64,000 bases of DNA from NCBI GenBank assembly GCA_029785615.1, contig JAFLZH010000004.1, positions 20,545-84,544 of the forward strand, in the 5' to 3' direction. The position numbers were made by a program, and so were the translations under genes. The notes under the pieces are model-generated. The model was not told where the DNA came from and did not search any database. It worked only from the letters and a program-made list of their open reading frames with translations. Position 1 is the stretch's first letter, and each line of letters starts with the position of its first letter. The DNA is from Nitrososphaerota archaeon (GTDB lineage Archaea; Thermoproteota; Nitrososphaeria; Nitrososphaerales; Gagatemarchaeaceae). Positions 5,996 through 40,822 of this stretch are shown here, piece by piece.

Positions 5996-6430
5996 TCAGC
6001 TGCTGACGAGCAACTTCAGCCTGTCAAAATCCTTTACGGAAAAGGTGCCTTCGCAGGCGTAGCAGCCTTCCACCTTGAAGTCGGGCTCAAGGTCGCCGTG
6101 CAGGAGGCACATCATCTTGTTGAACCTGATGTAGTCGAGGACCTCGGTCATCGACCGGAGCGCCTCTCTGGTGTCGGGATGGTCCAAGGAGAGCTCCTTG
6201 GCTATCTTGTCCGCGGCCTTCGTCACGGTCGGGTCGCCCTCGAGGTTGACCATGACCCCCCTCGTCTTTCTCGCGTAGTTACTCACTGAGGCCTGGGTGA
6301 CCCCGAGGCGCTTCGCGACCTCCTGCTGGGTGAGACGGTACTCCTCCTGCAGCCTTCTCGCCACCATGGCCCTCAGGGCGGGGAGGGCTGACTTCGCGAC
6401 TATCTCATAGGGGCTGATGAGGCGGGTCAT
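5996..6430 (-). CDS. HTH transcriptional regulator with a C-terminal Cys/His cluster
   Basis: HTH segment LTQQEVAKRLGVTQASVSNYARK; C-terminal CLLHGD...CYAC. It heads the lipA-E1-E2-E3-lipB gene string. Confidence 0.6.
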   Translation of the reverse strand: MTRLISPYEIVAKSALPALRAMVARRLQEEYRLTQQEVAKRLGVTQASVSNYARKTRGVMVNLEGDPTVTKAADKIAKELSLDHPDTREALRSMTEVLDYIRFNKMMCLLHGDLEPDFKVEGCYACEGTFSVKDFDRLKLLVSS

Positions 6431-6607: not shown

Positions 6608-9475
6608 GTGCAAGGGCAGAACGTCTTCCAGTTCCTTTCGCCTCCCCTGCTCGCAGCCTTGAAGGAACGGGGATTCGACTCCCCCACCGACCCCCAGGCG
6701 AAGCTCCTCCCCATAGTGATGAAAGGAAAGAATGCGCTCCTCATGGCCCCGACGGGGACTGGGAAGACTGAAGCGGCCCTGCTTCCGATTCTTGACGCCA
6801 TCATCCGCGAGGGCGAGACGAGAGAGAAGGGGACGAAACTGTTGTACATCACCCCGCTCCGAGCTCTCAACAGGGACATGCTCGACAGGATGCAGTGGTG
6901 GTGCAAGCGCTTCGACATCAGGCTGGGAGTGAGGCACGGAGACAGTAGCCAGGCAGAGAGGACCAACCTGAGCCTGGCCCCGCCCGACATACTCATCACG
7001 ACGCCGGAGACCCTCCAGATCATGCTCGTGGGGAGGAGGATCAGGCAGAACCTGGCGAAGCTGAGGTGGGTGGTGGTGGACGAGGTGCACGAGCTCTCGG
7101 AGGACAAGAGAGGGAGCCAACTGAGCGTCGGGCTCGAGAGGCTGAGGGACGTGGCAGAGAAGGAGTTCCAGGTAGTCGGTCTGTCGGCCACCGTCGGCTC
7201 CCCGGAGAAGGTCGCTCAGTTCCTAGTGGGGAACGGGAGAGAATGCGAGGTGGTGCGCGTCCCGGTTGAGAAGAGCCTGTCGCTGAAGGTGGTGGCCCCC
7301 AGGGCGACGGGGGACGACAGGATCCTCGCCGATGCCATATACTCCTACCCCGAAGTCGCGGCCAGGCTCAGGACCGTCAGGGAGCTGGTGGAGAAATACA
7401 GGTCAGTCCTCATTTTCACGAACACGCGGTCGGAGGCCGAGGCGCTGTCGAGTCGATTCAGGGTGTGGGATCCAGGATTCGCCATAGCGGTCCACCACAG
7501 CTCGCTGTCCAAGGCGACCAGGGAAGCCGTCGAGAGGAGCCTCAAGGATGGGAAGCTGCTCGGAGTAATATGCACGAGCAGCCTCGAGCTCGGCATAGAC
7601 ATAGGGTTCCTTGAGTATGTGATTCAGTACAACTCCCCGAGGCAGGTGACCAGGCTGATTCAGAGGGTAGGACGCAGCGGGCACAGGGTGGGTGAGGTCT
7701 CCAATGGGCTGGTGATCACCCAGGACTCTGACGACACGCTGGAAGCCGCCGTGCTCTGCAGGAAGGCGGTGATGGGCGAGCTGGAACCCCTCGAGCCGAT
7801 CTTCAACCCCTACGACGTGGCCATACACCAGGTCGCCGGGCTGCTCATCGAGCAGGGGAACTGGAACTTCGACGACCTGGTGGCCTTCTTCAAGAGGAGC
7901 TATGCCTATGCGGAACTCGACGGGGAGAGGATGAAGAAGGTGCTCACCTACATGCGGGAGCGCTATCCCCGCCTGGCCTACTACAGTGAATCGGACGGGA
8001 AGGTCTTCCGCGCCAGGGACGTCAAGCCGCTGTTCCAGTACTACTTCGACAACCTCTCGATGATTCCGGACGAGAAGCAGTACCTGGTCATCGAAGGGGA
8101 CACGTTCGTCGGCACCTTGGACGAGGCGTTCGTGTCGGAGTACGGGGAGGTCGGTGTCAAGTTCGTGGAGGCGGGGAGGTGCTGGAAGGTAGAGCAGATC
8201 TACGGGAACAAGGTATACGTGAGGTCAGAGGATGATCCGACGGGTGCAGTCCCCCACTGGGTGGGAGATGAGATACCTGTCCCGATGGAGGTCGCGGCAG
8301 AGGTAGGGTCCGTACGAAGGAGGTACGCCGAGGAGTTGGAGAAGGGTGGAGAGGCTGAATACCTGGACGAGCTGGCCAGGACTTACCCGGCCTCCAAGGA
8401 CGCCCTCCAGGAATCCTTGAAGGAGGTCGCGGAGCAGCAGGCTGCGAAGCTCCCCATACCCTCAGAGAGGCTTGTGACCATCGAGAAGTGGGACAAGTAC
8501 CTGGTCATACAGGCGGCCTTCGGGCACAGGGTGAACAGGCTGCTGGCCAGGGTCCTCGGTCACCTCATTTCCGAACGGATAGGGCAGTCGGTAGCCGTCC
8601 ACCAGGACCCTTACCGGATTGTGATCGAGGCCGAGGTGACGCCCGCCGTCGTCCTTTCGGTGGTCGAGGAGCTCCACAAGCTCGACCTGAAGGCAGCGAC
8701 TGAGAAAGCCGTAGAGAGGAGCGGGATCTTCAAGCGGCGCCTCATCCACGCGGGCAAGAAGTGCGGCGCCATAGCCAAGGACGCAGACTACGCAAGTGTC
8801 TCCATCGCCGGGATCATCGAAGCCCTCAGGGACACCCCCGTCTACGAAGAGGCGATGAGCATGATTTTCCACGACGACTTCGACCTCTCGGCGGCTGCCG
8901 ACGTGATCGAGAAGATTAACGCAGGCGCGATTGACGTGAAGCTGGTAGAGTACGAGGGGCTCACCCCCATCGCCAGAATCGGGGTGGAGGAGATCAGCAG
9001 ACGTGGAGAGATAGTCTCACCAGAGCGGTTGAGGGCCCTCCTGAAGCAGTCGACCAGGGCAAGGGTCAACGAGACGTTCCTCGTGGCGGTCTGCACCAGC
9101 TGCTGGAACTTCCTGGAGCTTAGAAAGGTCGCAGACCTAGAGGGGCTCGAGAGCTGCCCCGCGTGCGGGAAGCCTAGGTTGGGGCTCTCGACCGACTCTT
9201 ATGAGAACGTCTTCTCGCTGGCCATGAAGGCCAGGAGCAGGGCGGCTCTTACCGGAGCCAAGCTGAAGGTGGTCGAGGCGCTCAGAAAGTCGTCGGAGCT
9301 GAGGAAGGAGTACGGTCACGCCGCTGACATGATCCTGGCCGGGAGGGGGATAAGGCTGGCAGAAGCTGCAGCGCTGGCCGCGAAGATGAGGAAGGAAGGG
9401 ACGGATGTCGTTGAACTCATCATCGAAGGAGAGAGGGAGGCGCTGCGCAGGCGCTACTTCTTCGCCGCTTCCTGA
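6608..9475 (+). CDS. Lhr-type superfamily-2 DNA helicase (paralog 1) with a C-terminal zinc ribbon
   Basis: Walker A APTGTGKTEAALLPIL, DEVH box VVVDEVHEL, SAT, QRVGRSGHR motif VI and a late CTSCWN...CPACG ribbon. About 950 aa, typical of archaeal Lhr. Confidence 0.85.
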   Translation: MQGQNVFQFLSPPLLAALKERGFDSPTDPQAKLLPIVMKGKNALLMAPTGTGKTEAALLPILDAIIREGETREKGTKLLYITPLRALNRDMLDRMQWWCKRFDIRLGVRHGDSSQAERTNLSLAPPDILITTPETLQIMLVGRRIRQNLAKLRWVVVDEVHELSEDKRGSQLSVGLERLRDVAEKEFQVVGLSATVGSPEKVAQFLVGNGRECEVVRVPVEKSLSLKVVAPRATGDDRILADAIYSYPEVAARLRTVRELVEKYRSVLIFTNTRSEAEALSSRFRVWDPGFAIAVHHSSLSKATREAVERSLKDGKLLGVICTSSLELGIDIGFLEYVIQYNSPRQVTRLIQRVGRSGHRVGEVSNGLVITQDSDDTLEAAVLCRKAVMGELEPLEPIFNPYDVAIHQVAGLLIEQGNWNFDDLVAFFKRSYAYAELDGERMKKVLTYMRERYPRLAYYSESDGKVFRARDVKPLFQYYFDNLSMIPDEKQYLVIEGDTFVGTLDEAFVSEYGEVGVKFVEAGRCWKVEQIYGNKVYVRSEDDPTGAVPHWVGDEIPVPMEVAAEVGSVRRRYAEELEKGGEAEYLDELARTYPASKDALQESLKEVAEQQAAKLPIPSERLVTIEKWDKYLVIQAAFGHRVNRLLARVLGHLISERIGQSVAVHQDPYRIVIEAEVTPAVVLSVVEELHKLDLKAATEKAVERSGIFKRRLIHAGKKCGAIAKDADYASVSIAGIIEALRDTPVYEEAMSMIFHDDFDLSAAADVIEKINAGAIDVKLVEYEGLTPIARIGVEEISRRGEIVSPERLRALLKQSTRARVNETFLVAVCTSCWNFLELRKVADLEGLESCPACGKPRLGLSTDSYENVFSLAMKARSRAALTGAKLKVVEALRKSSELRKEYGHAADMILAGRGIRLAEAAALAAKMRKEGTDVVELIIEGEREALRRRYFFAAS

Positions 9476-10017
9476 GCGCGCGACAGTATCAGCGTCATGA
9501 GAGTCTTCTCGTCCACCTCCGCTCTGGTCCTCCAGCCTATGTGCACCATGGTCCGTTCGTCCTGCTCTAGGTAGCCGCGCTTCACGTACCGGTCGAGCGA
9601 GTAGTCGATCCTCCACCTGGGGAACTTCTCCCTGAGGAACTGCTCGACCTCGCGCCTGGCGACACGGCCGGTCTTGGAGTTGACGAAGGCGATGGTTGCC
9701 GCGAGGACAGCCAGGTCGTCTATCCTGATGCCCGACGTTTCCGCCTCCGTGACGGTAGGAGGCTCCTTGAACCTCAGGAGGAAGCGGGATGAATCGTCGG
9801 TCCCGTCGACGCCCTTCACCTCGAACACCTCGAGGCCCATGGGTGCGACGTCTTCTGAGAGGACTCCGATGATCTTGCGGTAGTCCCTCCCCAGGTACCG
9901 CTTCATCTCCCACCCCTTGACGCCGGGGTTACGCCCACGCTGGAGGACTAAGACCTGGAAGGCCCGCCTGACCTTCCTCTCCAGAAGCGCCCTGTCAGCG
10001 GTGTCCGACTCCATCAA
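9454..10017 (-). CDS. KITE-family tandem winged-helix protein (ScpB / Nse3-MAGE-like), SMC-kleisin partner
   Basis: 187 aa with two WH-like halves: VLVLQRGRNPGVKGWEMKRYL...GLEVFEVKG...RFLLRF and LAVLAATIAFVNSKTGRVARREVEQFL...YVKRGYLEQD...IGWRTRAEV. The start overlaps the stop of the kleisin-like gene by 4 nt. Confidence 0.6.
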   Translation of the reverse strand: MMESDTADRALLERKVRRAFQVLVLQRGRNPGVKGWEMKRYLGRDYRKIIGVLSEDVAPMGLEVFEVKGVDGTDDSSRFLLRFKEPPTVTEAETSGIRIDDLAVLAATIAFVNSKTGRVARREVEQFLREKFPRWRIDYSLDRYVKRGYLEQDERTMVHIGWRTRAEVDEKTLMTLILSRAQEAAKK

Positions 10018-10772
10018 TTCTCACCCGTTATCGATATCGCGACAGACTTCGGAGTCCCCTTCGTCTTCTCGGCCAGGGCCATGGTCCAGATTCTTCCCGT
10101 GAGAGGCTCGGTCTTCAGGAGGGCCCTCCCTTCGCTGATGAGGAACGCGAGGAGGTATGCCCTCCTGACCTTCATCTCGAAGCTTTCGACCCCGATGAAC
10201 TGGCGGTAGTCGACCCAGTCTCCGTTGGACTCCCTCAGGAGCTCTTCGTACAACTGGGTCAGTTCGACCTCGAACTCCTCCCTGGTGAAGACGCCGGTGC
10301 TGACCAGGTCGGCGTAATCGACCGTCCCCGGCCTGACTCCGTAGTTCCCGAACTGGTCTTTGAACCTCTCAGAGAGCGGGATTAGCTCGCGCCAGTAGAC
10401 GAAGGCCTTCTCCAGCCCCCTGGGAGACAGCTGGTCCACCTGGGCTATCGGGTGCCAGCTCCTGACGAACGCCTCGGTGAGGGCTTCCTTGGAGAGGAGC
10501 TTCACCTTGAGCTGGATGAGAAGAGGGTCGATGAAGAGAGCCGAAGCTCTCGACTTCAGCCACTGGTCCTGAAGCTTCACTATCTGCGCCAGCTCGAGCA
10601 TCGCCTCCGAGTCCACCAACAGTTCGTCCAGGAGCTTGAGCTCCGGGAGCCTCTGCTTCAACAGCAGTATCTTCTCCCTTATGTCCACGTCGAAGGGGTT
10701 CGCGCTGCTGGTCTCGACGTCGCGGCATAGCTCTATCACCCTGAGGTAGTCGTCGAGCTTGGTCTGTTCCAA
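10014..10772 (-). CDS. Kleisin-like protein (ScpA / Nse4-like)
   Basis: 252 aa. N-terminal helical segment (NPFDVDIREKILLLKQRL...EAMLELAQIVKLQDQWLKSRASAL) and a C-terminal WH-like segment (VRRAYLLAFLISEGRALLKTEPLTGRIW) resemble ScpA termini. It lies 4 nt downstream of the SMC-like gene. Confidence 0.6.
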   Translation of the reverse strand: MEQTKLDDYLRVIELCRDVETSSANPFDVDIREKILLLKQRLPELKLLDELLVDSEAMLELAQIVKLQDQWLKSRASALFIDPLLIQLKVKLLSKEALTEAFVRSWHPIAQVDQLSPRGLEKAFVYWRELIPLSERFKDQFGNYGVRPGTVDYADLVSTGVFTREEFEVELTQLYEELLRESNGDWVDYRQFIGVESFEMKVRRAYLLAFLISEGRALLKTEPLTGRIWTMALAEKTKGTPKSVAISITGEN

Positions 10773-10776
10773 GAAG

Positions 10777-12783
10777 TTACTTCAGCTCCTTGACCTCGGA
10801 CGAGCCGTGGACCGCCTGGACCGTGATGACGTGGGCGCTCCTGTCGAACACCGTCAGTATCGACGGGGTGATTACGATGTATTGTGAGGCCTCCCTCTGC
10901 TTCATCTGCGACAGAATCATCTTGAACATCGCTTCCCTGTTCTTGGGGTCCATATGTATGTCGAACTCGTCCATCGCCCTCAGGGGGGAGACTATCCTCG
11001 CCTGGAGGGACAGGATGAAAGCCATCAGGGCCACCGACCGCTCCCCGCCGCTCTGGGTGAACGGATCGAGGGTGGTGGGGGCGCCCCCCCTGAACCCGAC
11101 GTATAGGTCGAGGCCGGCGTCTTCGATGGTGTCAGCCTGCTCGAACTTTATGAAGCCGCTGGCGTCCGTTGCGGACAGGACCGCCTGATAGGATGGATCC
11201 ACAGTTTCAACCAGATCTTCCATGGCTTTCCTCCAGATGCCCTTACGCGAGTCCAGCTCCGAGAGCATGGACTTCTTGTTCTCCTGGAGCATTGCGAGCT
11301 TCGCCTTCAGCTCTTCGATGTTGCCAGAGTAGTCGTTGTAGATTTTCTCCGCGTCGTCGGGCACGTCCTGCATCTTTTGGATGTGGGCGGACACAAGCTT
11401 CAGCTCCTCTGAGACTTCATAGGGCTGGCGCGCTGTCTCCATCCTGCCCCCCGCCCTTTCGAGGTCCGGAGCCAGTTTGTCCAGCTCCGCTTTGTACTCT
11501 CTAGCAGTCCTCTCGAGGTCGTGGAGGTCAGACTCCGTCACTCTGATGCGGTACGAGAGTACCTCAGCCTTGACTTTGAAGGACACGTAGCTGTCGGTAG
11601 CGCGCCTGATGAGGTCCTCGGTCTTGGTGATGTCAGGCTGCAGGGAAGAGACTTCTCTGTCCAGCTCCGTCTTGCGGCGCTGGGCATCCTCTTCGGCCGA
11701 TAGGCTCTTTTGCTCGATGTACGCGGCGAGCTCCTTGAGCCTCTTCGCGCTCCTGTCCCCCCCTTTTGACAGGAGCTCGTCAATCGTGGTTGACAGCCCT
11801 GAGAGGTCGTCCTTTATCGACCGGTAGGCGTCGCGAGCCGACTCGTCCTTCGCCTTCTCCGACTCCGCCCGCACGAGGGCATAGTAGAGCTTGCGCAGTT
11901 CCACCTGCTTGTCCAGGAGCGTCTGGTGGGTCTGCTCGGCGTCGGAAGAGACCTCGGTCTGCTGCGACTTCAGGTCTTCAAGGGCCTTCGTCTTCGAAGC
12001 AATCTTCTCCTCGGCGCCCTGTAGTGCCTTGCTGAGCTTGTTCTCAGTGCTCCACAGAAGCTCCTTGGTCAGGAGGTCTCTGTGTTCGATTTGCCTCCGC
12101 TTCTCCTGGTAGCGGTCGTACACCTGCTTCCAGTATTCGAGGGCCTGGTTGGCGTTGTCTATGAGTTGGAGGAGGGAGCTCTCCTCTCCCACCAGTCCGC
12201 CCAGCTCCTGCTCGGCCAACGTGATCCTCTGCCTGTACTCGGAGAACCCGACCGCCTCTTCGACCATCCTCAGGCGCTCCTGGGGGGTGACGGCGCCCAG
12301 CTCCTCTATCATCCCCTGGTGCATGATGATGAGCAGGTTGTCTGGGTTGATGCCGAACTCGCTGAGGAGCCTCACGACCTCGCTCTTGTCTATCTCCTTG
12401 TAGTCCGCCTCGAACCAGTACGAACCGTCGCGCCTCAGGTACCTGCTGAGCATGAAGGTGTCCGACTTCGAGTAGGGAATCGGCCTCCGCCCCGCCTTCT
12501 GGGAGTTGTCGAAGATGAGAGAAACCCGGGCGATGTCTTTACCGCGCCTGATGAGGTCTGAGAGCTTCCTTGACCTTTCGGTGTACGCCTGCCCGAACGC
12601 TACGGAAATGGCGAGGAGGACCGAGGACTTGCCGGCCCCGTTGGGACCGACTACCAGGTTCAAGCCCTCGCGGAGGGGTATCCGGGCATACTCGTAACTC
12701 ATGAAATTCTCCAGGATGATCTCCTTTACTGTGGTAAGATGAGACGGCCTCTCCTGGGAGACCTCTCTGACGCCTCGGGACAA
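10777..12783 (-). CDS. Short SMC-family ATPase with Smc5/Smc6-like head motifs, no hinge and no zinc hook
   Basis: N-head ILENFMSY...LNLVVGPNGAGKSSVLLAI; C-head signature QSGGERSVALMAFILSLQARIVSPLRAMDEFDIHMDPKNRE...QYIVITPSIL. About 350 aa of heptad-like coiled coil lies between the heads. The protein is 668 aa with zero cysteines. Confidence 0.8.
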   Translation of the reverse strand: MSRGVREVSQERPSHLTTVKEIILENFMSYEYARIPLREGLNLVVGPNGAGKSSVLLAISVAFGQAYTERSRKLSDLIRRGKDIARVSLIFDNSQKAGRRPIPYSKSDTFMLSRYLRRDGSYWFEADYKEIDKSEVVRLLSEFGINPDNLLIIMHQGMIEELGAVTPQERLRMVEEAVGFSEYRQRITLAEQELGGLVGEESSLLQLIDNANQALEYWKQVYDRYQEKRRQIEHRDLLTKELLWSTENKLSKALQGAEEKIASKTKALEDLKSQQTEVSSDAEQTHQTLLDKQVELRKLYYALVRAESEKAKDESARDAYRSIKDDLSGLSTTIDELLSKGGDRSAKRLKELAAYIEQKSLSAEEDAQRRKTELDREVSSLQPDITKTEDLIRRATDSYVSFKVKAEVLSYRIRVTESDLHDLERTAREYKAELDKLAPDLERAGGRMETARQPYEVSEELKLVSAHIQKMQDVPDDAEKIYNDYSGNIEELKAKLAMLQENKKSMLSELDSRKGIWRKAMEDLVETVDPSYQAVLSATDASGFIKFEQADTIEDAGLDLYVGFRGGAPTTLDPFTQSGGERSVALMAFILSLQARIVSPLRAMDEFDIHMDPKNREAMFKMILSQMKQREASQYIVITPSILTVFDRSAHVITVQAVHGSSEVKELK

Positions 12784-12900
12784 GCTTCGAGCCTGCGCGG
12801 GCCCCGGGCGCTTTTAGACATTGCCCCCCGGGAGGCCGGAATACAGTTTCACCGACCCCTCTCTCGTGACACCTTAAATCGGGTGGCGGTCCTCTCACCG

Positions 12901-15747
12901 TTGTTGTCTGCTCGGACCGCGTTCGAAGCTCTCGCTCCAGCCGTGAGGGGGTTCCTGGCAGACACGGGGATGGTTGAGCCCACGCCCCCCCAGATCGAGG
13001 CATGGCCCCTCGTCTCTCGAGGGGGAGACGTCCTCGTGGTAGCCCCCACAGGTTCCGGGAAGACCGAAGCCGCAATGCTTCCGCTGCTGAGCAGGCTGTT
13101 GTCTGAAGGTCACGGGGACGGGATTTCGCTGCTGTACATCACCCCCATGCGAGCCCTGAACCGCGACATGCTGAAGCGGTTACAAGCCTGGTGCGCCAGG
13201 CTAGGGCTCACGGTCGACGTCAGGCATGGGGACACCCCCCAGTCCCAGAGGTCGAAGCAGTCGACGCACCCCCCTGACGTCTTGGTAACCACCCCGGAGA
13301 CATTGCAGGCGATACTCCCGGGCCGGAGGATGAGGGACAACTTGTCGCACCTGAAGGCAGTGGTAGTGGATGAGCTCCACAACCTGGTAGAGAGCAAGCG
13401 AGGGGTGCAGCTCTGCGTAGGGCTGGAGCGGCTCCGGAAGGTGGCTCCCGACTTCCAGCTGGTCGCGCTCTCCGCCACCGTCGGGACTCCAGCGGTGGCG
13501 GCCAAATTCCTCTTCGGAAACCGGAGCGTTAAGATCGTGAAGGCTGATGCGCCCAAGGAATTCGCCTTCGCCATCGAGTACCCGGTCCCCGACCCAGCGA
13601 GCCAGTCAGCCGCCAAGGAGACATACTCGGCGCCCGACCTGGCGGCCAGGCTCACCCGGATCAACGCCCTGATCGACGGCCACACTTCGACCCTCATCTT
13701 CGTCAACAGCAGGACCCTCGCCGAGATGCTTGGAGAGAAGCTGGCCAGGCTCAGGAAGGACGTCGGGGTCCATCACGGGTCGCTGCCCAGGGAGGAGCGA
13801 GAGCGGGTGGAGCAGGCGTTCAAGGCCGGAGAGCTGAAGGCTCTGGTCTGCACCAGCACCCTGGAGCTGGGCATCGATGTGGGGTCTGTGGACCTGGTGG
13901 TCCAGTACATGTCACCAAGGCAGGTCACAAGCCTCGTGCAGCGCGTCGGCAGGAGCGGCCACAGGCTCGGGAGGGTCTCCAAGGGCGTCCTCGTCACGGT
14001 CTCGGCGGATGACATCATGGAGTCCACCGCCAGCATCCGCTCGGCCGCCCAGAAGAGGATCGAGCCCACCAGGCCATACTCGAACTCCCTGGACGTGCTT
14101 GCCCACCAGGTCGCAGGGTACCTCATGGACTTCGAGACGATGGAGGCAAGTAGGATGCTGGCGGAGGTGAGGAAAGCAGCCCCGTTCGAGGGCCTCCAAG
14201 ACGACGCATTCCTCAGAACCGTGGGCTATCTCGCAGAGCTCCGGAAGCTCAGATTCGACGGCACGACGCTGTCCAGGACCAGACTGACTAGGGAGTACTA
14301 CTACGAGAACCTGTCGATGATCCCCGACGAGACCAGATACCTTGTCGTGGACGTGTCCACCAACCAGACCGTGGGCATACTGGGCGAGGAGTTCGTCCTT
14401 CTGAAGGCGAAGGTCGGCATACACTTCGTGATCAAGGGGCGGGTGTGGCAGGTGGAACAGATAGCCGAGGACAGGAAGATCTATGTGACCCCCGTTGAAG
14501 ACCCGCTCGCCGCCGTCCCCGGGTGGGACGGCGAGATGCTGCCGATTCCATACGAGCTCGCCGTGGAGACCGGCAGCCTGAGAAGGGAGGTCTCAGACGC
14601 GCTGGACGCGGGTCAAGACGCGGTCGAGAGGGTCGAGGGGCACATCCCCGGGGACACGGCTGCGCGGGCCCTCGTTGTGGACCAGATCGCCGAGCAGAAG
14701 AAGATGGGAGCGTCGGTCCCATCGGATAGGCTGGTCCTCTTCGAAGGTTTCGGCCGGTACCTGATCGTCCATCTCTGCTTCGGGGAGTCGGTCAACAGGA
14801 CGTTCGCCTATGTGTTCGAAGAGATCCTGTCTAGGCGGGGACTGGTGAGAGTCTGGTGGCTCGACGGATACAGGCTTCTGATGGAGCTCACCACGGAGAC
14901 TGGGGAGCTGGACCTTGAGGCGATTGCCACGGAGCTGATGCGCCTGACCCCCGAGGAGCTCGAGAGGACCTATGCGGTCGCCGCCCAGAGGAACTTCCCC
15001 TTCCCTGCTCGAGTGAAGTTCGTGGCCGAGAGGTTCGGAGCGCTGAAGCGGGGCAAATTGATTGCCCACCCCAACCTCTGCTCCCTCCCTACCCGCTTCG
15101 AAAAGACCCCCATCTTCGAGGAGGCCCTGCAGGAGACCGGGAGGGACCTGATTGACATGGGTCACTCGAAGGAGATTCTCATGGCGGTGGCCGGCGGCAA
15201 GATAGCGGTTGAGACCTTCCAAGCGGGTGAGAGGCCCACCCCCATCGCCTACAGTCTCCTCTATCGGTACCTCGAGGTTCCCGAGGCCGTTGCCCCCGAC
15301 TCACTGGGGAAGTCGTCCTACCAGAGGCTGAAGGCGACCATATTCGGGACCGAGGTGAGCCTCCTTTGCGTGAAGTGTGGCTCGGACCAAGGCCAGACCA
15401 CAGTGGGCGAAGTTCCTGAGGAGCCCCGGTGCGGAAGCTGCGGGTCAGGGCTCCTGGCTCCATGTTACTGTGGGACGGCCAAGCTCTCCGAACTGATCAA
15501 GAAGAGAGAGGCCAGGACCCAGCTGAACGAAGAGGAGCGCTCTGAGCTTTCGCGGGCCAGGCGGGGGGCCGACCTGGTCCTGTCGTACGGAAGGAAGGCG
15601 GTCGTCGCCCAGACCGTCTATGGCATCGGCCCGCAGACCGCGTCCAGGATCCTAGCCGAGATGCATGATGACGAGGAGGCGTTCTACAGGGACCTGCTCG
15701 AAGCTAAGATTCGGTTCGTCACGACCAGGCAGTACTGGGGGAGCTGA
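12901..15747 (+). CDS. Lhr-type superfamily-2 DNA helicase (paralog 2) with a C-terminal zinc ribbon
   Basis: APTGSGKTEAAMLPLL, VVVDELHNL, SAT, QRVGRSGHR and CVKCG...CGSCG. The frame is open from 12739, but that would overlap the divergent SMC-like gene. An in-frame TTG at 12901 lies about 24 nt after a TTAAAT box (12875-12880). The start is uncertain. Confidence 0.8.
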   Translation: MLSARTAFEALAPAVRGFLADTGMVEPTPPQIEAWPLVSRGGDVLVVAPTGSGKTEAAMLPLLSRLLSEGHGDGISLLYITPMRALNRDMLKRLQAWCARLGLTVDVRHGDTPQSQRSKQSTHPPDVLVTTPETLQAILPGRRMRDNLSHLKAVVVDELHNLVESKRGVQLCVGLERLRKVAPDFQLVALSATVGTPAVAAKFLFGNRSVKIVKADAPKEFAFAIEYPVPDPASQSAAKETYSAPDLAARLTRINALIDGHTSTLIFVNSRTLAEMLGEKLARLRKDVGVHHGSLPREERERVEQAFKAGELKALVCTSTLELGIDVGSVDLVVQYMSPRQVTSLVQRVGRSGHRLGRVSKGVLVTVSADDIMESTASIRSAAQKRIEPTRPYSNSLDVLAHQVAGYLMDFETMEASRMLAEVRKAAPFEGLQDDAFLRTVGYLAELRKLRFDGTTLSRTRLTREYYYENLSMIPDETRYLVVDVSTNQTVGILGEEFVLLKAKVGIHFVIKGRVWQVEQIAEDRKIYVTPVEDPLAAVPGWDGEMLPIPYELAVETGSLRREVSDALDAGQDAVERVEGHIPGDTAARALVVDQIAEQKKMGASVPSDRLVLFEGFGRYLIVHLCFGESVNRTFAYVFEEILSRRGLVRVWWLDGYRLLMELTTETGELDLEAIATELMRLTPEELERTYAVAAQRNFPFPARVKFVAERFGALKRGKLIAHPNLCSLPTRFEKTPIFEEALQETGRDLIDMGHSKEILMAVAGGKIAVETFQAGERPTPIAYSLLYRYLEVPEAVAPDSLGKSSYQRLKATIFGTEVSLLCVKCGSDQGQTTVGEVPEEPRCGSCGSGLLAPCYCGTAKLSELIKKREARTQLNEEERSELSRARRGADLVLSYGRKAVVAQTVYGIGPQTASRILAEMHDDEEAFYRDLLEAKIRFVTTRQYWGS

Positions 15748-15783: not shown

Positions 15784-16467
15784 TTGGTGCTAGCAGGCAA
15801 GGTCTTCCTCGTGAGGGAGAACTACGAGATCGACACCCTCGCGGAGAAGTTGAAGTCGTTCAGGATAGAGACGGAGACGAGCGTAGAGGGGAAGGAGTTC
15901 AAGCTCGTGTCAGAGATAACAGACCTGGGGGTCGGCAAGGGGTCACTCGAGGGGAAGTTCTCATTTGACTCCGTCTTCGTGGTCCCCCACAGGGGCGAGT
16001 CGGTCCCGGTCCCCAGGACCTATGAAGCGCCTTTCTCCTTCGGAATGTACAAGGATAGGATGTTCCTCACTGTCTACGACAAGAAAAACCGAGCTAACAA
16101 CATAGCGAACGAGATGAGCAAGGCGGTGTTCATGAGCCTTGGTCAGGTGGTCGAGGCCAGGATCGACCCGGAGACCTTACGGAAGTTCCATGAGGCGAAC
16201 TTCGACGACACCAAGGTGATATTCTATTCGGACGTCGACCTGCCTAACATCACCAAGCTGTCCCTCTATGGCGCTGAACTGGGCAACACGAGCCTCTACA
16301 CCGACTACCTTACTCATGGGAAGCTGTGGTACATCGTCTTCAAGAGCAGGGAGTACGGCTACGTGTTCGGGCTCACGAGGAACTGCATCCTGACGGGGTT
16401 CAGCAAGATGGAGCTGTCGGAGTTCAAGAACTTCGTGGGGAGCCAGGTCCTCCCGCTGATAGCGTAG
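15784..16467 (+). CDS. Hypothetical protein with no recognisable motif, wedged between Lhr paralog 2 and the MPE phosphoesterase
   Basis: 227-aa ORF with genome-typical GC3-rich codons. It starts 36 nt after the helicase stop and ends 1 nt before the next gene. Confidence 0.55.
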   Translation: MVLAGKVFLVRENYEIDTLAEKLKSFRIETETSVEGKEFKLVSEITDLGVGKGSLEGKFSFDSVFVVPHRGESVPVPRTYEAPFSFGMYKDRMFLTVYDKKNRANNIANEMSKAVFMSLGQVVEARIDPETLRKFHEANFDDTKVIFYSDVDLPNITKLSLYGAELGNTSLYTDYLTHGKLWYIVFKSREYGYVFGLTRNCILTGFSKMELSEFKNFVGSQVLPLIA

Positions 16468-16468
16468 C

Positions 16469-17227
16469 TTGCTGAAGATAGTCCCCGGAGAAGCCGCGCT
16501 AGTGTTCTCTACGGCCGAGAGCAAGACCCTGCTGATATCCGACCTGCACCTCGGCCTGGAGAAGGAGATGGCGAAGAAAGGCTTCCGCCTACCCGCCTAC
16601 TCGGTGAGGATGGTTGAGAGGGTGAAGCGGGCTGCTGAGGAGTATTCGACAACAAGGCTGGTCGTGTTGGGAGACGTCAAGCACACGGTCGGCAAGGTGG
16701 AGGACATAGACTGGGGGGCGGTCCCGTGGTTCTTCGACACCATGCTGGACCTCTTCGAGGTCGTGGAGGTCGTCCCGGGGAACCACGACGGGAACATCAA
16801 GACGGTCCTCCCCCCGCGCGTGAAACTGGACAGGTCTCAGGGGACCACCTTGGGCGAGGGGCGGAAGCAGATCGGGGTTGCCCACGGGCATGCCTGGCCC
16901 TCGGAGGAAGCCATTGCGACGAGGAACCTCGTCATAGGCCACTCCCACTTCACCTACGAGATGCGTGACGGCATGGGCGCCAGGACGAGGGAGTCGGTGT
17001 GGGTGACCGCTGACTACGACGTCGCCAAGCTGATGGAGGGGGCAGGGTACCCCTCCAAGCTCCGGGGGAAGGGTAGGCTGACGGTGATGCCCCCCTTCAA
17101 CAGGCTGGTCGGCGGACAGCCTATCAACAGGAGCAGGTCGTTCGAGTTCGGGCCCGTCCTATCCTCGAGGTCGATAAGCCTCGAAGAGGCAGACATATTC
17201 CTGACAGATGGGACCAGGGTGACCTAG
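16469..17227 (+). CDS. Calcineurin-like metallophosphoesterase (MPE/PdeM-like, Lhr-associated type)
   Basis: Metal-ligand motifs ISDLHLG, VVLGDVKH, VPGNHDG, VAHGHAWP and VIGHSHF. Confidence 0.8.
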   Translation: MLKIVPGEAALVFSTAESKTLLISDLHLGLEKEMAKKGFRLPAYSVRMVERVKRAAEEYSTTRLVVLGDVKHTVGKVEDIDWGAVPWFFDTMLDLFEVVEVVPGNHDGNIKTVLPPRVKLDRSQGTTLGEGRKQIGVAHGHAWPSEEAIATRNLVIGHSHFTYEMRDGMGARTRESVWVTADYDVAKLMEGAGYPSKLRGKGRLTVMPPFNRLVGGQPINRSRSFEFGPVLSSRSISLEEADIFLTDGTRVT

Positions 17228-38554: not shown

Positions 38555-38662
38555 GGGGTCGTCGGCTAGTCTGGTCTAGGCTTCAAGCCTTGGGTGTCCC
38601 ATCAGTCGTGGCTGGGGGGCCGAGGCCGCTTGAGACCCCCGGTTCAAATCCGGGCGACCCCA
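38555..38662 (+). tRNA. tRNA-Pro (anticodon UGG), with an intron of about 32 nt after position 37
   Basis: Acceptor GGGGTCG/CGACCCC+A. Anticodon arm CAAGC CTTGGG[intron]C GCTTG. T arm CCCGG TTCAAAT CCGGG. My D-arm parse has one mismatch and one extra nt, so the isotype is less certain. Confidence 0.7.
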
Positions 38663-38734
38663 TCCAATCAAAAGCGCGTATTAAATCGAGTTATCATAGC
38701 GTTAAATACTTTTGACCTCGACGTCCTGGTCAGA

Positions 38735-40822
38735 TTGCAGGCCGCTCCTCGCAGGGTCAAGACGATCTATAGTGTGATCGCGTCTCCGCAGAGGCTCGAG
38801 ATTCTGAGGATACTGAACATCAAGGGACCCCTGACCTACAGCGCCCTGAAGACGCTGGCCGGGTTCAAGTCGAAGAAGGAGTCTGGGAAGTTCGCCTACC
38901 ACCTGCGAAAGCTCGTGAAGCAGCTGCTCATCCAGCTCAACAGGCAGGAGAGGAAGTACACAGTGACCAACCTGGGGAGGCTTGTGCTCAACCTCACCAG
39001 GCAGATCGAAGAGCAGTCGCTCGTAGAGAGCGGGAAGCTGTATGTCCGGACCTCGCACCAGACGATGGAGGAGTTCAATGCCAACAAGATACTCCAGTCA
39101 CTTGTGAAGGAGGCAGGGATGCCGGTGGAGCTGGCCCAGAAGATCACGAGTGAGACTGAGTCAAGGCTCTACAAGTTCCAGACCCAGTATCTGACCGCCC
39201 CTCTCATACGCGAGATAGTCAACGCGCTCCTCGTGGAGCACAGCATGGAGGAGTACAGGCACAAGCTCACCAGACTTGGGATGCCCATCTACGACGTCAC
39301 CCAACTTTTGGGGAAGGCAGGGGACGACGGGGGCAACGTCGAGTCGCTGATTCACCAGACTGGGAAGCAGGTCTTCTCCGAATATCTCCTGCTGGAACAG
39401 CTCCCGAGGGACGTGGCGGACGCTCACCTCTCCGGCGACATCCACATCACGAACGCGGGGTCCTGGGGGCTCTCGCCCGACGCAGTGTTCGTCGACCTTC
39501 TGTCTATGAGGTCCGCAGGGCTCAACCCGAGGGGGAAGATACTCAACGCCTCCATGATACCGAGCCCCGAGAATGCCGAAAAGGCGCTCAACATCGTGCT
39601 CAACATGGCTTCCATGCTCACGAGGGAAGCTTCTGACGAAGTGACCTTCCGGAACTTCCTTCAGTTTATCGGCCCGTACTGCAGATCCAAGGGGAAGAGG
39701 GAGCTCGAATCGCTCTTCCTGAGGTTCTATGAGACCATCGGGTCGCCAGTTGCCGGGGCGACCGGTCCGGCCATCAGCATCGACCTCAATCCATACAAGC
39801 ACGACGACGTCGGCCGCGAAGTCCTGGACAAGACCCTAGACGCGGCCCTCGGCGCCTACAGGAGCTACGTCGAAGAGACCCCGAGGCCTGACATCAGGAT
39901 TCTTCTGGCAAAGCCCAGCAGGGTGGACGATACGAAGACTTTGAAGGATGCCGCGTCAATCATCTTCAACGGAGGGAGGATAGCGTTCTTCTCCTCTGAC
40001 CAGCGTAGGAGCTTTCTCGGGCTGAACGCCAACGTGCTCTCTCAGGAGTCCCAGGCGGACAACATCAACGTGCTCCACGGGCTCAGCCTTAACCTCCCCA
40101 GGCTCGCCTATGACTCCAACCAAGACGAGACATACTTCCGGGCCAAGCTGGCCCTCCTCATCGGAGTGGCGGCGGACGCACTTTCGACGAGGAGGAGGCT
40201 GATTGAGAGAGCGTTGAAGAGGGGCCTCCTTCCCTCGCTGGCGTCCGGTTCGGATGCCGTGACTTCTGACACGATGCCGCTCATCATGAATTTTGTCGGC
40301 TTCGAGGAGACCCTTGCCAGTCTGATACGGGACCCGACAACGGCCTCGCGATACGAGCTCGCAGACAAGATAGTGGGGACAGCCACCCAGGTGGCAGACG
40401 ACAAGTCGACCAAGATTGACAGGCTTGGAGCTGCGATGCTGGACTTGGACGGCGCGTCGAGGCTCGCGAGCCTTGATGCTGAGAAGTATGGGAAGGCGAA
40501 CATCCAGCCTCTCATGAGAGGGGCGTATACCCAGGCCCCCAGGCTTCTCCTGGCCGACCTTGAGAACCCGGAGAAGATGGACTACGTGACGAAGCTCTCC
40601 ACAGGGCTGCGCGGAGGGGTCTCCATCACCCTGGACGGATCTTCGGACGAAGTGAGGGGGATCTACAACCTCATCCTCAACGCGTCGCCCAAACTATCCT
40701 ACTTCAAGGTGGACAGGGTCATATCGGTCTGCAGAAATTGCGGCGCGAAGCTGCCACAGAACGCAGGCAGGTGCCAGAGGTGCAAGTCCGTCGCGATGAC
40801 GCAGTATTCGACGGCGGGCTAG
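38735..40822 (+). CDS. wHTH + ATP-cone + class III RNR (NrdD)-like protein lacking radical-chemistry residues
   Basis: The tracked start at 38594 overlaps tRNA-Pro. An in-frame TTG at 38735 lies about 27 nt after TTAAATA (38702-38708). ArsR-like wHTH (SPQRLEILRILNIKGPLTYSAL); ATP-cone (KLYVRTSHQTMEEFNANKILQSL...); NrdD-like AHLSGDIHITN and LSLNLPRLAY; terminal CRNCG...CQRC ribbon. Confidence 0.7.
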   Translation: MQAAPRRVKTIYSVIASPQRLEILRILNIKGPLTYSALKTLAGFKSKKESGKFAYHLRKLVKQLLIQLNRQERKYTVTNLGRLVLNLTRQIEEQSLVESGKLYVRTSHQTMEEFNANKILQSLVKEAGMPVELAQKITSETESRLYKFQTQYLTAPLIREIVNALLVEHSMEEYRHKLTRLGMPIYDVTQLLGKAGDDGGNVESLIHQTGKQVFSEYLLLEQLPRDVADAHLSGDIHITNAGSWGLSPDAVFVDLLSMRSAGLNPRGKILNASMIPSPENAEKALNIVLNMASMLTREASDEVTFRNFLQFIGPYCRSKGKRELESLFLRFYETIGSPVAGATGPAISIDLNPYKHDDVGREVLDKTLDAALGAYRSYVEETPRPDIRILLAKPSRVDDTKTLKDAASIIFNGGRIAFFSSDQRRSFLGLNANVLSQESQADNINVLHGLSLNLPRLAYDSNQDETYFRAKLALLIGVAADALSTRRRLIERALKRGLLPSLASGSDAVTSDTMPLIMNFVGFEETLASLIRDPTTASRYELADKIVGTATQVADDKSTKIDRLGAAMLDLDGASRLASLDAEKYGKANIQPLMRGAYTQAPRLLLADLENPEKMDYVTKLSTGLRGGVSITLDGSSDEVRGIYNLILNASPKLSYFKVDRVISVCRNCGAKLPQNAGRCQRCKSVAMTQYSTAG

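What the first reader, a model, noticed from the sequence alone, without database searches (positions are those of the whole stretch)
9454..10772. KITE subunit with an Nse3/MAGE-like sequence pattern, plus a ScpA/Nse4-like kleisin
- **KITE subunit.** The 187-aa protein has two winged-helix halves whose conserved positions line up by eye with the MAGE homology domain as I remember it from human NSMCE3.
  - First half: VLVLQRGRNPGVKGWEMKRYL..GLEVFEV...RFLL versus LLVKDQSKVPITRSEMLK...FGVNLKEI...LYILI.
  - Second half: LAVLAATIAFVNSKTGRVARREVEQFL...YVKRGYLEQ...IGWRTRAEV versus [26 protein letters not shown]...FVKQKYLEY...FFWGLRSYHET.
- **Kleisin.** The 252-aa upstream protein has ScpA-like N-terminal helices and a C-terminal WH.
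- **Implication.** If the MAGE-like affinity is real, this locus would be a prokaryotic counterpart of the Nse3/Nse4 module, not merely ScpAB.
Basis: inference. Interest (0 to 1): 0.7.

Follow-up and report, generated by a model that had tools for sequence, protein, structure and literature searches.

The report
Archaeal SMC5/6-like three-gene operon
This soil archaeon carries a compact three-gene operon whose proteins (a short SMC ATPase, a kleisin and a tandem winged-helix "kite") are most similar to the eukaryotic Smc5/6–Nse4–Nse1/Nse3 DNA-repair complex, not to ordinary prokaryotic Smc–ScpAB. This kind of operon was already described in archaea in 2021–2025.

Summary
The two ORFs exist as described (187 aa and 252 aa, minus strand). 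With a 668-aa SMC-like ATPase directly upstream they form a tightly packed operon. Alone, neither small protein matches any Pfam, NCBIfam or PDB sequence.

Family-level evidence agrees for all three subunits:
- **Kite.** The family profile hits Nse3/MAGE and Nse1 but not ScpB, MukE or JetB. A confident AlphaFold model (pLDDT 94.5) is a tandem winged helix closest to Nse1/Nse3.
- **Kleisin.** The profile hits Nse4/EID3, and 23 of 29 relatives match Pfam Nse4_C. None matches ScpA.
- **SMC.** The ATPase head scores 40–50 bits higher against Smc5/Smc6 than against any other SMC.

The operon is conserved across Nitrososphaerota, Bathyarchaeia, Hadarchaeota and others. One orthologous locus (Hadesarchaea WYZ-LMO6) is a published example of the "SMC5/6-related" archaeal cluster (van Hooff et al., bioRxiv 2024/25).

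The kite is as Nse1-like as it is Nse3-like.

I did not find three things mentioned in the papers I read. The SMC has no hinge and short arms in all 24 relatives examined. The operon sits among two Lhr helicases and an MPE/PdeM-like phosphoesterase. A conserved 227-aa protein of unknown function lies nearby.

The parts
10777..12783 (-). SMC5/6-like SMC ATPase, 668 aa, without a hinge. N-terminal half-head is roughly residues 1-184 (12232-12783). Coiled-coil arms plus apex are residues 185-512 (11248-12231). C-terminal half-head is residues 513-668 (10780-11247).
   Evidence: Pfam SMC_N at 8.7e-36, with no SMC_hinge hit at E<=10. Head-only phmmer against PDB gives Smc5 116 bits and Smc6 88 bits, best other SMC 74 bits, Rad50 about 43 bits. 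The family profile gives Smc5/6 at 192-202 bits against 149 for the best canonical Smc. The invariant 'ITP' and 'SP.RA.DEFD..MD..NR' blocks align with Smc5/Smc6. The arm plus apex is only 293-332 aa in 24/24 relatives, the apex varies by indels, and there is no CxxC.
10014..10772 (-). Nse4-like kleisin, 252 aa. N-terminal helices are roughly residues 1-80 (10533-10772). The central region is low-confidence. The C-terminal winged helix is roughly residues 160-235 (10068-10295).
   Evidence: The family profile (A3) hits human EID3/NSE4B at 1.3e-4 and yeast Nse4 at 6e-4 over the C-terminal domain. No ScpA, MukF or Scc1 is hit. Pfam Nse4_C matches 23/29 relatives, best 4.2e-6, and SMC_ScpA matches none. 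In the AF2 model the C-terminal domain has pLDDT 68-90. Top Foldseek hits are kleisin C-terminal winged helices on SMC heads: ScpA 4i99_C TM 0.79, Scc1 0.73, and Nse4. All have E >= 0.024. The window protein alone hits nothing.
9454..10017 (-). Nse1/Nse3-like kite, 187 aa (186 aa from the ATG at 10012-10014). It has an N-terminal helix, WH-A at roughly residues 25-88 (9754-9945), WH-B at roughly residues 95-165 (9523-9735) and C-terminal helices. There is no RING and no cysteine.
   Evidence: AF2 pLDDT 94.5. Foldseek and profile evidence as above. The family is narrow, with 115 representatives at 50% identity among 1.84 billion proteins.
6608..9475 (+). Lhr-type helicase A. It is convergent with the kite gene and overlaps its 3' end by 22 nt. 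It is an associated neighbour and is not shown to be part of the complex.
   Evidence: Pfam DEAD, Helicase_C, WH_Lhr and DEAD_assoc. NCBIfam TIGR04121 at 1.6e-112. It is a conserved neighbour in 58/80 related loci.
12739..15747 (+). Lhr-type helicase B, divergent from the SMC gene. It is an associated neighbour.
   Evidence: In locus L036 it instead sits in tandem after Lhr-A, so the gene set is kept despite rearrangement.
15784..16464 (+). Conserved 227-aa protein of unknown function. In many relatives it lies directly next to the SMC gene on the opposite strand.
   Evidence: It is present in 19/45 loci directly upstream of and divergent from the SMC gene, in Nitrososphaerota, Bathyarchaeia and Hadarchaeota. 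It has no Pfam, NCBIfam or PDB match, even with a family profile.
16469..17227 (+). MPE/PdeM-like (SbcD-related) metallophosphoesterase, 252 aa. It is an associated neighbour.
   Evidence: NCBIfam TIGR00024 SbcD_rel_arch at 4.7e-23 and TIGR04123 PdeM at 1.1e-15. Weak Pfam Metallophos hit. It co-occurs with the operon in 13 loci.

Best explanation
The region encodes the kleisin and kite subunits of an archaeal SMC5/6-related complex. The SMC subunit is the gene directly upstream.

**Shown by computation**
- The three genes are co-oriented and nearly abutting, so they are probably translationally coupled.
- The SMC has a complete split ABC-ATPase head (Walker A GPNGAGKS, an invariant Q-loop Gln, signature SGGER, Walker B/D-loop DEFD). 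The head carries Smc5/6-type sequence features.
- It has two heptad-periodic arms of about 150 aa each that meet at a variable apex. There is no hinge and no zinc hook.
- The kleisin has a C-terminal winged helix of the kind that binds an SMC head cap, with Nse4-type sequence.
- The kite is a tandem winged helix closest to Nse1/Nse3.

**Inferred mechanism, by analogy with yeast Smc5/6**
- Each SMC folds back on itself into a rod of about 20 nm. I estimated this from about 150 residues per arm and did not test it.
- Two SMCs engage their heads on ATP.
- One kleisin bridges the neck of one SMC (N-terminal helices) and the cap of the other (C-terminal winged helix).
- A kite homodimer binds the central part of the kleisin.
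- Together they clamp double-stranded DNA on top of the engaged heads.

There is no hinge, so the active unit is probably the head-proximal kleisin/kite DNA clamp. A large hinge-closed ring that extrudes loops seems less likely.

The conserved Lhr helicases and MPE/PdeM-like nuclease next to the operon suggest a role in replication-fork or DNA-damage processing. Eukaryotic Smc5/6 has such a role.
For: **Operon anatomy.**

**Conserved gene order.** SMC, kleisin and kite occur in that order in essentially all 80 related loci where the contig allows. These come from 324 GTDB species genomes that encode a relative.

**Each subunit independently points to Smc5/6.**
- SMC head.
- Kleisin.
- Kite.

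**Published orthologue.** Locus L070 is QNVD01000244.1 of Hadesarchaea WYZ-LMO6. van Hooff et al. list its genes 4-6 as SMC5/6-related SMC, Nse4-related kleisin and Nse1,3-related kite. Their kite, kleisin and SMC phylogenies place such archaeal proteins with Nse1/3, Nse4 and SMC5/6. Yoshinaga & Inagaki found SMC5/6-related archaeal SMCs in Thaumarchaeota and Bathyarchaeota.

**Housekeeping context.** The window holds enolase, PheRS, RNR, RNase P RNA, SRP RNA and 5S rRNA.

**Repair-type neighbours.**. Lhr-MPE pairing and fork targeting by archaeal Lhr come from PMC8301817 (read) and from the abstracts of PMC7826289 and PMC7437997 (listed).
Against: - The window's own kite and kleisin reach no curated threshold. 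Neither hits anything as a single sequence.
- The family-level hits are significant but modest (1e-6 to 1e-3) and lie below the Pfam gathering scores.
- The kleisin model is poor outside the C-terminal domain (mean pLDDT 58.9). Its fold hits have E >= 0.024 and do not separate ScpA from Nse4.
- Three features that define eukaryotic Smc5/6 are absent: the hinge with long arms, the Smc5/Smc6 and Nse1/Nse3 heterodimers, and the Nse1 RING with Nse2 and Nse5/6.
- No physical interaction, ATPase activity, DNA binding or phenotype has been tested.
- The link to repair rests only on gene neighbourhood. The Lhr-A arrangement is convergent, so it is not an operon with the kite gene.
Confidence: 0.8

Rival explanations
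1. It is an ordinary but divergent prokaryotic condensin, Smc-ScpA-ScpB, and the MAGE/Nse resemblance is just the shared kite and kleisin folds.
For: Kites and kleisins of all SMC complexes share folds. ScpB, MukE and JetB do appear in the Foldseek list at E 1e-3 to 1e-2. The best-superposed kleisin C-terminal domain is ScpA (4i99_C, TM 0.79).
Against: - No ScpB or ScpA sequence is hit by either family profile at E<=10.
- Pfam ScpB matches 1/36 members at 0.07, and ScpA matches 0/29.
- The SMC head prefers Smc5/6 by 40-50 bits.
- The SMC has no hinge, unlike canonical Smc.
- The published survey finds a separate ScpB-like kite in most Nitrososphaerales genomes it lists, including those that carry the Nse1/3-like kite.
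Confidence: 0.03
2. It is an SMC-based defence system against foreign DNA, like Wadjet/JetABCD or Lamassu, and not a chromosome-maintenance complex.
For: The SMC gives generic PADLOC hits (mad3 1.7e-28, LmuB 1.2e-17, JetC 1.6e-11). JetB is the seventh Foldseek hit for the kite. [quoted passage not shown]
Against: - Neither small protein has any PADLOC hit.
- There is no JetD/Toprim or Lamassu effector gene in the operon.
- The locus sits among housekeeping genes.
- It keeps the same neighbourhood across many Nitrososphaerota genomes at 65-94% kite identity. That pattern looks like vertical inheritance, not a defence island.
Confidence: 0.07
3. It is a Rad50-like or ASRP/ClsN-like short SMC-related protein with two unrelated small partners.
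For: Its length (668 aa) and lack of a hinge resemble Rad50 and the archaea-specific SMC-related proteins (ASRPs). There are weak NCBIfam hits to Rad50 and ASRP.
Against: [quoted passage not shown] This protein has no cysteine, and none of 24 relatives has a CxxC in the arm or apex.
- ASRP scores 43.8 bits against a cut-off of 300.
- Rad50 scores about 43 bits against 116 for Smc5.
- The partners are a kleisin and a kite, not Mre11.
Confidence: 0.02

Closest known systems
Archaeal 'SMC5/6-related' operon (SMC + Nse4-related kleisin + Nse1/3-related kite) of TACK and Asgard archaea (van Hooff, Raas, Tromer & Eme, bioRxiv 10.1101/2024.01.07.573240), and the 'SMC5/6-related aSMC' of Yoshinaga & Inagaki 2021 (PMC8665677)
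   Same: It has the same three genes in the same order. An orthologous locus (L070, Hadesarchaea WYZ-LMO6 QNVD01000244.1) is one of their published example clusters. The taxonomic range is also the same: Thermoproteota including Nitrososphaeria and Bathyarchaeia, Hadarchaeota, and scattered Euryarchaeota.
   Different: In their per-genome table several Nitrososphaerales families show only the kite. One is JACPRH01, my L058, where I find all three genes adjacent. They attribute such gaps to downsampling. In the main text and supplements I searched I found no mention of a missing hinge, short arms, or Lhr neighbours. I did not search them for MPE or for the 227-aa protein.
Eukaryotic Smc5/6 core: Smc5-Smc6, Nse4, Nse1-Nse3 (for example PDB 7qcd, 7tve, 8i13, 9lwi, 7dg2, 5hvq)
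   Same: The SMC head is most similar to Smc5/Smc6, including the 'ITP' block that aligns with Smc5/6. The kleisin C-terminal domain matches Nse4_C. The kite is structurally and by profile closest to Nse3/MAGE and Nse1.
   Different: - It has one SMC gene and one kite gene, so homodimers are expected.
- It has no hinge, and arms of about 150 aa each. Total length is 668 aa, against 1,069-1,157 residues for the Smc5/6 chains in PDB.
- The kite has no Nse1 RING.
- No Nse2 SUMO ligase or Nse5/6 was detected in the operon.
Bacterial and archaeal Smc-ScpAB and MukBEF/Wadjet (JetABC)
   Same: The general design is the same: an SMC ATPase, a kleisin and a tandem winged-helix kite encoded together. 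The kite and kleisin C-terminal folds are shared.
   Different: There is no sequence-profile affinity to ScpA, ScpB, MukE, MukF, JetA or JetB. The SMC has no hinge. There is no JetD nuclease.
Lhr-Core helicase with MPE metallophosphoesterase repair gene cluster (PMC7826289, PMC8301817)
   Same: Both Lhr paralogues match the 'ligase-associated DNA damage response' helicase family. The 252-aa neighbour matches TIGR00024 and PdeM. The Lhr-TIGR00024/MPE pairing is a known conserved neighbourhood.
   Different: Here an SMC5/6-like operon and an unknown 227-aa gene lie between the Lhr and MPE genes. The Lhr neighbourhood paper I read does not mention SMC.

Membership tests
Kite superfamily (Palecek & Gruber 2015) | Tandem winged-helix fold | tested here: met
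   The AF2 model has pLDDT 94.5 and two winged-helix units. Foldseek finds Nse1, Nse3, JetB, MukE and ScpB, all with probability >= 0.99.
Kite superfamily (Palecek & Gruber 2015) | Encoded with, and binding, the kleisin of an SMC complex | tested here: inconclusive
   Gene adjacency is met. The SMC-kleisin-kite operon is conserved in about 80 loci. Physical binding cannot be tested with these tools.
Nse1/Nse3 (MAGE) branch of kites | Sequence-profile affinity to MAGE/Nse3/Nse1 greater than to ScpB/MukE | tested here: met
   Profile against PDB: Nse3 2.9e-5, NSMCE3 2.4e-4, NSMCE1 5.6e-3, and no ScpB, MukE or JetB at E<=10. Pfam: SMC_Nse1 8/36, MAGE 2/36, ScpB 1/36.
Nse1/Nse3 (MAGE) branch of kites | Passes the Pfam MAGE (PF01454) or SMC_Nse1 (PF07574) curated threshold | tested here: not met
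   The window protein has no MAGE or Nse1 hit even at E<=10. The weak E-values among relatives (best 4.7e-6) suggest their hits are below threshold too, but the per-member cut-offs were not reported.
Nse1/Nse3 (MAGE) branch of kites | Phylogenetic placement in the Nse1/3-related clade | not tested
   I built no tree, because no ScpB, MukE or Nse sequences were available offline. The published kite phylogeny places the orthologue at L070 (QNVD01000244.1_6) as Nse1,3-related.
Nse1 | C-terminal variant RING domain | tested here: not met
   The protein is 187 aa, has no cysteine and ends just after WH-B.
Eukaryotic Nse1-Nse3 pair | Two paralogous kites forming a heterodimer | tested here: not met
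   There is a single kite gene in the operon in all loci examined.
Nse4-type kleisin | C-terminal winged helix matching Nse4_C | tested here: met
   This holds at family level. Nse4_C matches 23/29 relatives, best 4.2e-6. The profile hits EID3/NSE4B at 1.3e-4 and yeast Nse4 at 6e-4. Two database relatives carry a precomputed PF08743 domain. The window sequence alone does not hit.
Nse4-type kleisin | N-terminal helical domain that binds the SMC neck, and a central region that binds the kite | not testable with these tools
   Helices 3-21, 31-41 and 46-78 are predicted, but at pLDDT 52-71. The centre is below 50. Multimer modelling was not available.
Smc5/Smc6-type SMC | ATPase head closer to Smc5/6 than to Smc1-4 or prokaryotic Smc | tested here: met
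   Head only: 116 and 88 bits against at most 74. Family profile: 192-202 bits against 149. The 'QY.VITP' and 'SP.R..DEFD..MD..NR' blocks align with Smc5/6.
Smc5/Smc6-type SMC (and canonical SMC generally) | Hinge dimerisation domain and arms of about 50 nm | tested here: not met
   There is no SMC_hinge hit, and it is not among the 25 listed families that most of the 24 relatives match. The arm plus apex is 293-332 aa, and the apex varies by indels of up to about 45 aa.
Smc-ScpAB | ScpA (PF02616) and ScpB (PF04079) sequence membership | tested here: not met
   ScpA 0/29 and ScpB 1/36 at E 0.07. There are no PDB ScpA or ScpB sequence hits.
Wadjet / MksBEF | JetA/JetB (MukF/MukE-like) partners and a JetD Toprim nuclease | tested here: not met
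   Neither small protein has a PADLOC hit. No fourth operon gene of that kind was found.
ASRP / ClsN / Rad50 | Zinc hook (CxxC) at the coiled-coil apex | tested here: not met
   The window protein has no cysteine, and no CxxC occurs in the arm or apex of any of 24 relatives. ASRP scores 43.8 bits against a cut-off of 300.

The most novel reading that the evidence does not exclude
This may be a minimal, hinge-free SMC5/6-type machine made of an SMC homodimer, an Nse4-like kleisin and a single Nse1/3-like kite. It would work only as a head-proximal DNA clamp and would be functionally coupled to Lhr helicases, an MPE/PdeM-like nuclease and a so far unknown 227-aa partner.

If so, the ancestral job of the Smc5/6 lineage would be damage or replication-fork processing, not hinge-dependent loop extrusion. 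The complex would also be small enough to serve as a structural model for Smc5/6.
Probability: 0.25. Interest if true: 0.65.

Novelty: new member of a known kind. Interest (0 to 1): 0.4.

Why it matters
**Already argued in the literature.** Smc5/6 is the least understood eukaryotic SMC complex. Published phylogenies already argue that it originated in archaea. This locus adds a clean, complete example in non-ammonia-oxidising Nitrososphaerales, with all three subunits independently pointing to Smc5/6.

**Possibly useful beyond confirmation.**
1. The whole clade examined has a hingeless SMC of about 650 aa. That gives a very small Smc5/6-type core (about 1,100 residues per SMC-kleisin-kite set) for structural and biochemical work. 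It also raises the question of how an SMC complex works without a hinge.
2. The recurrent Lhr, MPE and unknown 227-aa neighbours give testable hypotheses for a repair function.
3. According to the published table, the cultured Conexivisphaera calida carries SMC5/6-related, Nse4-related and Nse1/3-related genes, and the table lists no canonical set for it. That suggests an experimental entry point.

Tried and rejected
- **Single-sequence searches.** Searches of the kite and kleisin against Pfam, NCBIfam and PDB gave nothing useful. The weak Sec61_beta and TY-Chap3 hits are noise. Some databases name relatives 'SEC61-beta family protein', apparently from that spurious hit.
- **Designed repeat protein.** The top PDB hit of the kite profile, a designed helical repeat protein (7udk), is summed from four weak repeat stretches. 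I rejected it.
- **Locus search.** The search for related loci with the 36-sequence alignment failed for lack of a conserved stretch. A 10-sequence subset worked.
- **Kleisin modelling.** I used the last large-database search to obtain permitted diverse sequences. The resulting model is confident only in the C-terminal domain.
- **Distant relatives.** I tried to see whether distant kite relatives sit beside an SMC that has a hinge. The contigs found were too short.
- **Defence hypothesis.** Tested with PADLOC and rejected.
- **Zinc-hook (Rad50/ASRP) hypothesis.** Rejected.
- **Neighbouring proteins.** The 227-aa neighbour could not be assigned to any family. The 252-aa phosphoesterase has no PDB sequence hit.

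Full report
**1. What is there**

The window comes from a Nitrososphaerota (thaumarchaeal) chromosome.
- Close relatives of the proteins are all from Nitrososphaerota or Nitrososphaerales metagenome-assembled genomes.
- The window carries archaeal RNase P RNA, SRP RNA and 5S rRNA.
- It also carries housekeeping genes: enolase, PheRS alpha and beta, two ribonucleotide reductases, a 2-oxoacid dehydrogenase complex and lipoyl synthase.

Three ORFs lie head to tail on the minus strand:
- a 668-aa SMC-like ATPase at 10777..12783,
- the 252-aa protein at 10014..10772,
- the 187-aa protein at 9454..10017.

The SMC stop and the kleisin start are 4 nt apart. The kleisin stop shares one base with the likely ATG of the kite (TGATG). 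The finding covers the last two genes of a three-gene operon.

**2. Single-sequence tests fail and family-level tests succeed**

Alone, the two small proteins match nothing in Pfam or NCBIfam, even at E<=10. They also match nothing meaningful among PDB sequences.

An exhaustive search of 1.84 billion cluster representatives found only 115 relatives of the kite, so the family is narrow. I aligned 36 diverse full-length members, 25-79% identical to the window protein (A1).

The A1 profile hits the following PDB sequences:
- Xenopus Nse3, annotated as a MAGE domain protein (7dg2_C), at 2.9e-5,
- human NSMCE3/MAGE-G1 at 2.4e-4 and 9e-4,
- human NSMCE1 at 5.6e-3,
- MAGE-A4 and MAGE-B1, weakly.

No ScpB, MukE or JetB appears at E<=10. 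The one stronger hit, a designed repeat protein, is summed from four weak repeat stretches.

Scanning the 36 members one by one against Pfam gives SMC_Nse1 in 8 (best 4.7e-6), MAGE in 2 and ScpB in 1 at 0.07.

**3. Kite structure**

AlphaFold2 with A1 gives a confident model with mean pLDDT 94.5 and pTM 0.83. It has a long N-terminal helix, two winged-helix units and C-terminal helices.

Foldseek against the PDB puts these hits first, with E from 3e-6 to 8e-4:
- Nse3 (7dg2_C, TM 0.64),
- MAGE-G1,
- NSE1 (5hvq_C, TM 0.57; 7dg2_A, TM 0.68, rmsd 3.1 Å),
- MAGE-A4,
- a yeast Nse subunit.

JetB (TM 0.48), MukE (0.35) and ScpB (0.41) come next.

The protein is therefore a kite, and it is closest to the Nse1/Nse3 branch. 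It is about equally close to Nse1 and Nse3. It has no cysteine, so it has no RING.

**4. Kleisin**

I collected 29 diverse kleisins from the related loci (A3).
- The profile hits human EID3/NSE4B at 1.3e-4 and yeast Nse4 at 6e-4 over the C-terminal domain. Nothing from ScpA, MukF or Scc1 is hit.
- Pfam Nse4_C matches 23 of 29 members, and ScpA matches none.
- A profile search of 5.8 billion proteins returned relatives that carry a precomputed Nse4_C domain.

The AlphaFold model is poor overall (mean pLDDT 58.9), which is not surprising for a subunit expected to bind partners. Its C-terminal winged helix is reasonably confident at 68-90.

That domain's best fold matches are the kleisin C-terminal domains seen bound to SMC heads: ScpA 4i99_C (TM 0.79, rmsd 2.3 Å), Scc1 1w1w_E (0.73) and Nse4. 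These matches are statistically weak, with the best E at 0.024. The fold suggests a kleisin and the sequence indicates Nse4-type. The N-terminal neck-binding helices are plausible but untested.

**5. SMC**

- Against PDB sequences, the full protein hits Smc5 (1e-29) and Smc6 (3.5e-22) ahead of every other SMC.
- To exclude coiled-coil bias I joined the two half-heads into one query. Smc5 then scores 116 bits and Smc6 88 bits. The best condensin/cohesin-type or prokaryotic Smc head scores 74 bits, and Rad50 about 43.
- A 24-member family profile (A6) gives 192-202 bits for Smc5/6 against 149 for the best canonical Smc.
- At residue level, the invariant 'SQYIVITPS' aligns with 'SQYF(F/L)ITPKLL' of Smc5 and 'RQFILLTPQS' of SMC6. 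'SPLRAMDEFDIHMDPKNRE' aligns with SMC6 'SPFRCLDEFDVYMDMVNRR'.
- That canonical SMCs carry His, Leu or Ser at the position of the 'P' in 'ITP' is my recollection. I did not test it here.

**6. The SMC has no hinge**

- Pfam finds no SMC_hinge in the window protein. SMC_hinge is also not among the 25 listed families that most of the 24 relatives match.
- The region between the half-heads is only 293-332 aa in all 24 relatives.
- That region shows 3.5-residue hydrophobic periodicity.
- Its centre, around residues 320-380 with a 'GG' at 341-342, is the least conserved part of the protein. It varies by indels of up to about 45 aa.
- The window protein has no cysteine, and no relative has a CxxC there.

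Each arm is therefore about 150 residues. I estimate a rod of roughly 20 nm. There is no hinge and no zinc hook. [quoted passage not shown]

**7. Conservation and the literature**

A scan of GTDB species genomes found 324 genomes that encode a kite relative. I examined the best 80. They come from Nitrososphaerota, Bathyarchaeia, Hadarchaeota, Hydrothermarchaeota and a few euryarchaeal MAGs. One is labelled 'Desulfobacteria', possibly through mis-binning.

Wherever the contig is long enough, the order is the same on one strand: SMC (623-696 aa where the start is well defined), kleisin (about 250-280 aa), then kite (about 180-205 aa).

The idea is published:
- Yoshinaga & Inagaki (PMC8665677) defined 'SMC5/6-related' archaeal SMCs, mostly in TACK archaea including Thaumarchaeota and Bathyarchaeota.
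- van Hooff et al. (bioRxiv 10.1101/2024.01.07.573240) showed by phylogeny that TACK and Asgard archaea have Nse4-related kleisins and Nse1/3-like kites, encoded in operons with SMC5/6-related SMCs.
- Their table of example clusters lists Hadesarchaea WYZ-LMO6 QNVD01000244.1 genes 4-6. That is my locus L070, a member of this same family. Its kite is 45% identical to the window's.

In their per-genome table several Nitrososphaerales families show only the kite. One of them is JACPRH01, my L058, where all three genes are adjacent. They attribute such gaps to downsampling.

I found no mention of hinge loss or short length in either paper or in the supplements. No experimental work on these complexes turned up in the library.

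**8. Neighbourhood**

In operon orientation the window reads:

[MPE/PdeM-like phosphoesterase <-] [227-aa unknown <-] [Lhr-B <-] [-> SMC -> kleisin -> kite] [<- Lhr-A]

- Both Lhr genes have the Lhr-Core domain set. Both match the 'ligase-associated DNA damage response' helicase family.
- The 252-aa gene matches TIGR00024 (archaeal SbcD-related phosphoesterase, 4.7e-23) and PdeM (1.1e-15).
- Lhr-A is a convergent neighbour in 58/80 loci. These include a Thermoproteota locus (L065) and a Hydrothermarchaeota locus (L072).
- In L036 the same seven genes occur, but Lhr-B follows Lhr-A and the 227-aa and MPE genes are directly divergent from the SMC. The gene set is kept although the order has changed.
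- The 227-aa protein lies directly beside the SMC in 19/45 loci across three phyla. It matches nothing in Pfam, NCBIfam or PDB, even as a family profile.
- Lhr-MPE pairing is a known repair-associated neighbourhood, and archaeal Lhr targets replication-fork structures (PMC8301817; PMC7826289 and PMC7437997, abstracts).

This is circumstantial support for a repair or replication-fork role.

**9. Rival explanations**

- **Ordinary Smc-ScpAB.** The profile results, the head ranking and the missing hinge all exclude it.
- **A Wadjet- or Lamassu-type defence system.** This is unlikely. The small proteins have no PADLOC hits, there is no nuclease effector gene in the operon, and the locus is housekeeping and syntenic across many genomes.
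- **Rad50 or ASRP.** The zinc-hook criterion and the scores exclude it.

**10. Verdict**

The affinity is to Nse1/3, not specifically to Nse3. The kleisin is Nse4-like, not ScpA-like.

The locus is a new member, from non-ammonia-oxidising Nitrososphaerales, of a kind already described. It does not meet the definition of eukaryotic Smc5/6. It has no hinge, its subunits are expected to form homodimers, and it has no RING, Nse2 or Nse5/6. 'SMC5/6-related' is therefore the accurate label.

The hingeless architecture, the Lhr/MPE context and the 227-aa partner are the parts worth following up.

Noticed in passing
window 15784-16464 (+); also L036:2397-3080(-), L070:520-1224(-) and 17 other loci: A well-conserved protein of about 227 aa with no match in Pfam, NCBIfam or PDB, even as a family profile. 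It lies directly beside the SMC gene on the opposite strand in 19/45 related loci across Nitrososphaerota, Bathyarchaeia and Hadarchaeota. It may be an accessory factor of the complex or of the Lhr/MPE module.
   Followed up: partly
window 6608-9475 (+) and 12739-15747 (+): Two paralogous Lhr-Core helicases flank the operon. Lhr-A overlaps the kite 3' end convergently by 22 nt and is a conserved neighbour in 58/80 loci. In L036 both Lhr genes sit in tandem downstream of the kite instead.
   Followed up: partly
window 16469-17227 (+): A 252-aa metallophosphoesterase that matches TIGR00024 (archaeal SbcD-related) and the PdeM 'ligase-associated DNA damage response endonuclease'. This is the known partner type of Lhr helicases. 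It co-occurs with the operon in 13 loci.
   Followed up: partly
window 10777-12783 (-), residues about 185-512: The SMC has no hinge domain and no zinc hook. Its arms are about 150 aa each, and the apex is variable and rich in indels. All 24 relatives examined are the same. I did not find this mentioned in the papers that describe archaeal SMC5/6-related proteins.
   Followed up: yes
window 53077-60501 (-): A giant 2,474-aa ORF with Ig-like, PKD and SprB repeats, presumably a surface or adhesion protein.
   Followed up: no
window 5996-6430 (-): A 144-aa protein with a weak HTH match (ParB-HTH-like, and the 'near KaiC' regulatory domain). It is a conserved neighbour beyond Lhr-A in 30 of the related loci, followed by lipoyl synthase.
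   Followed up: no
database annotations of kite relatives (P0039, P0055, P0058, P0063): Some NCBI records name kite homologues 'SEC61-beta family protein'. This appears to come from a spurious short Sec61_beta hit (E 0.12 here) and is probably a misannotation.
   Followed up: partly
L073 (DATKXZ010000066.1): One locus carrying the kleisin and kite is labelled as a Desulfobacteria bacterium MAG. This may be a mis-binned archaeal contig and not a bacterial occurrence.
   Followed up: no
window 38594-43290 (+): Two ribonucleotide reductase genes lie side by side. One is class III-like (NRDD) with an ATP-cone. The other has the class I/II-type large-subunit barrel with a TSCPD domain.
   Followed up: no
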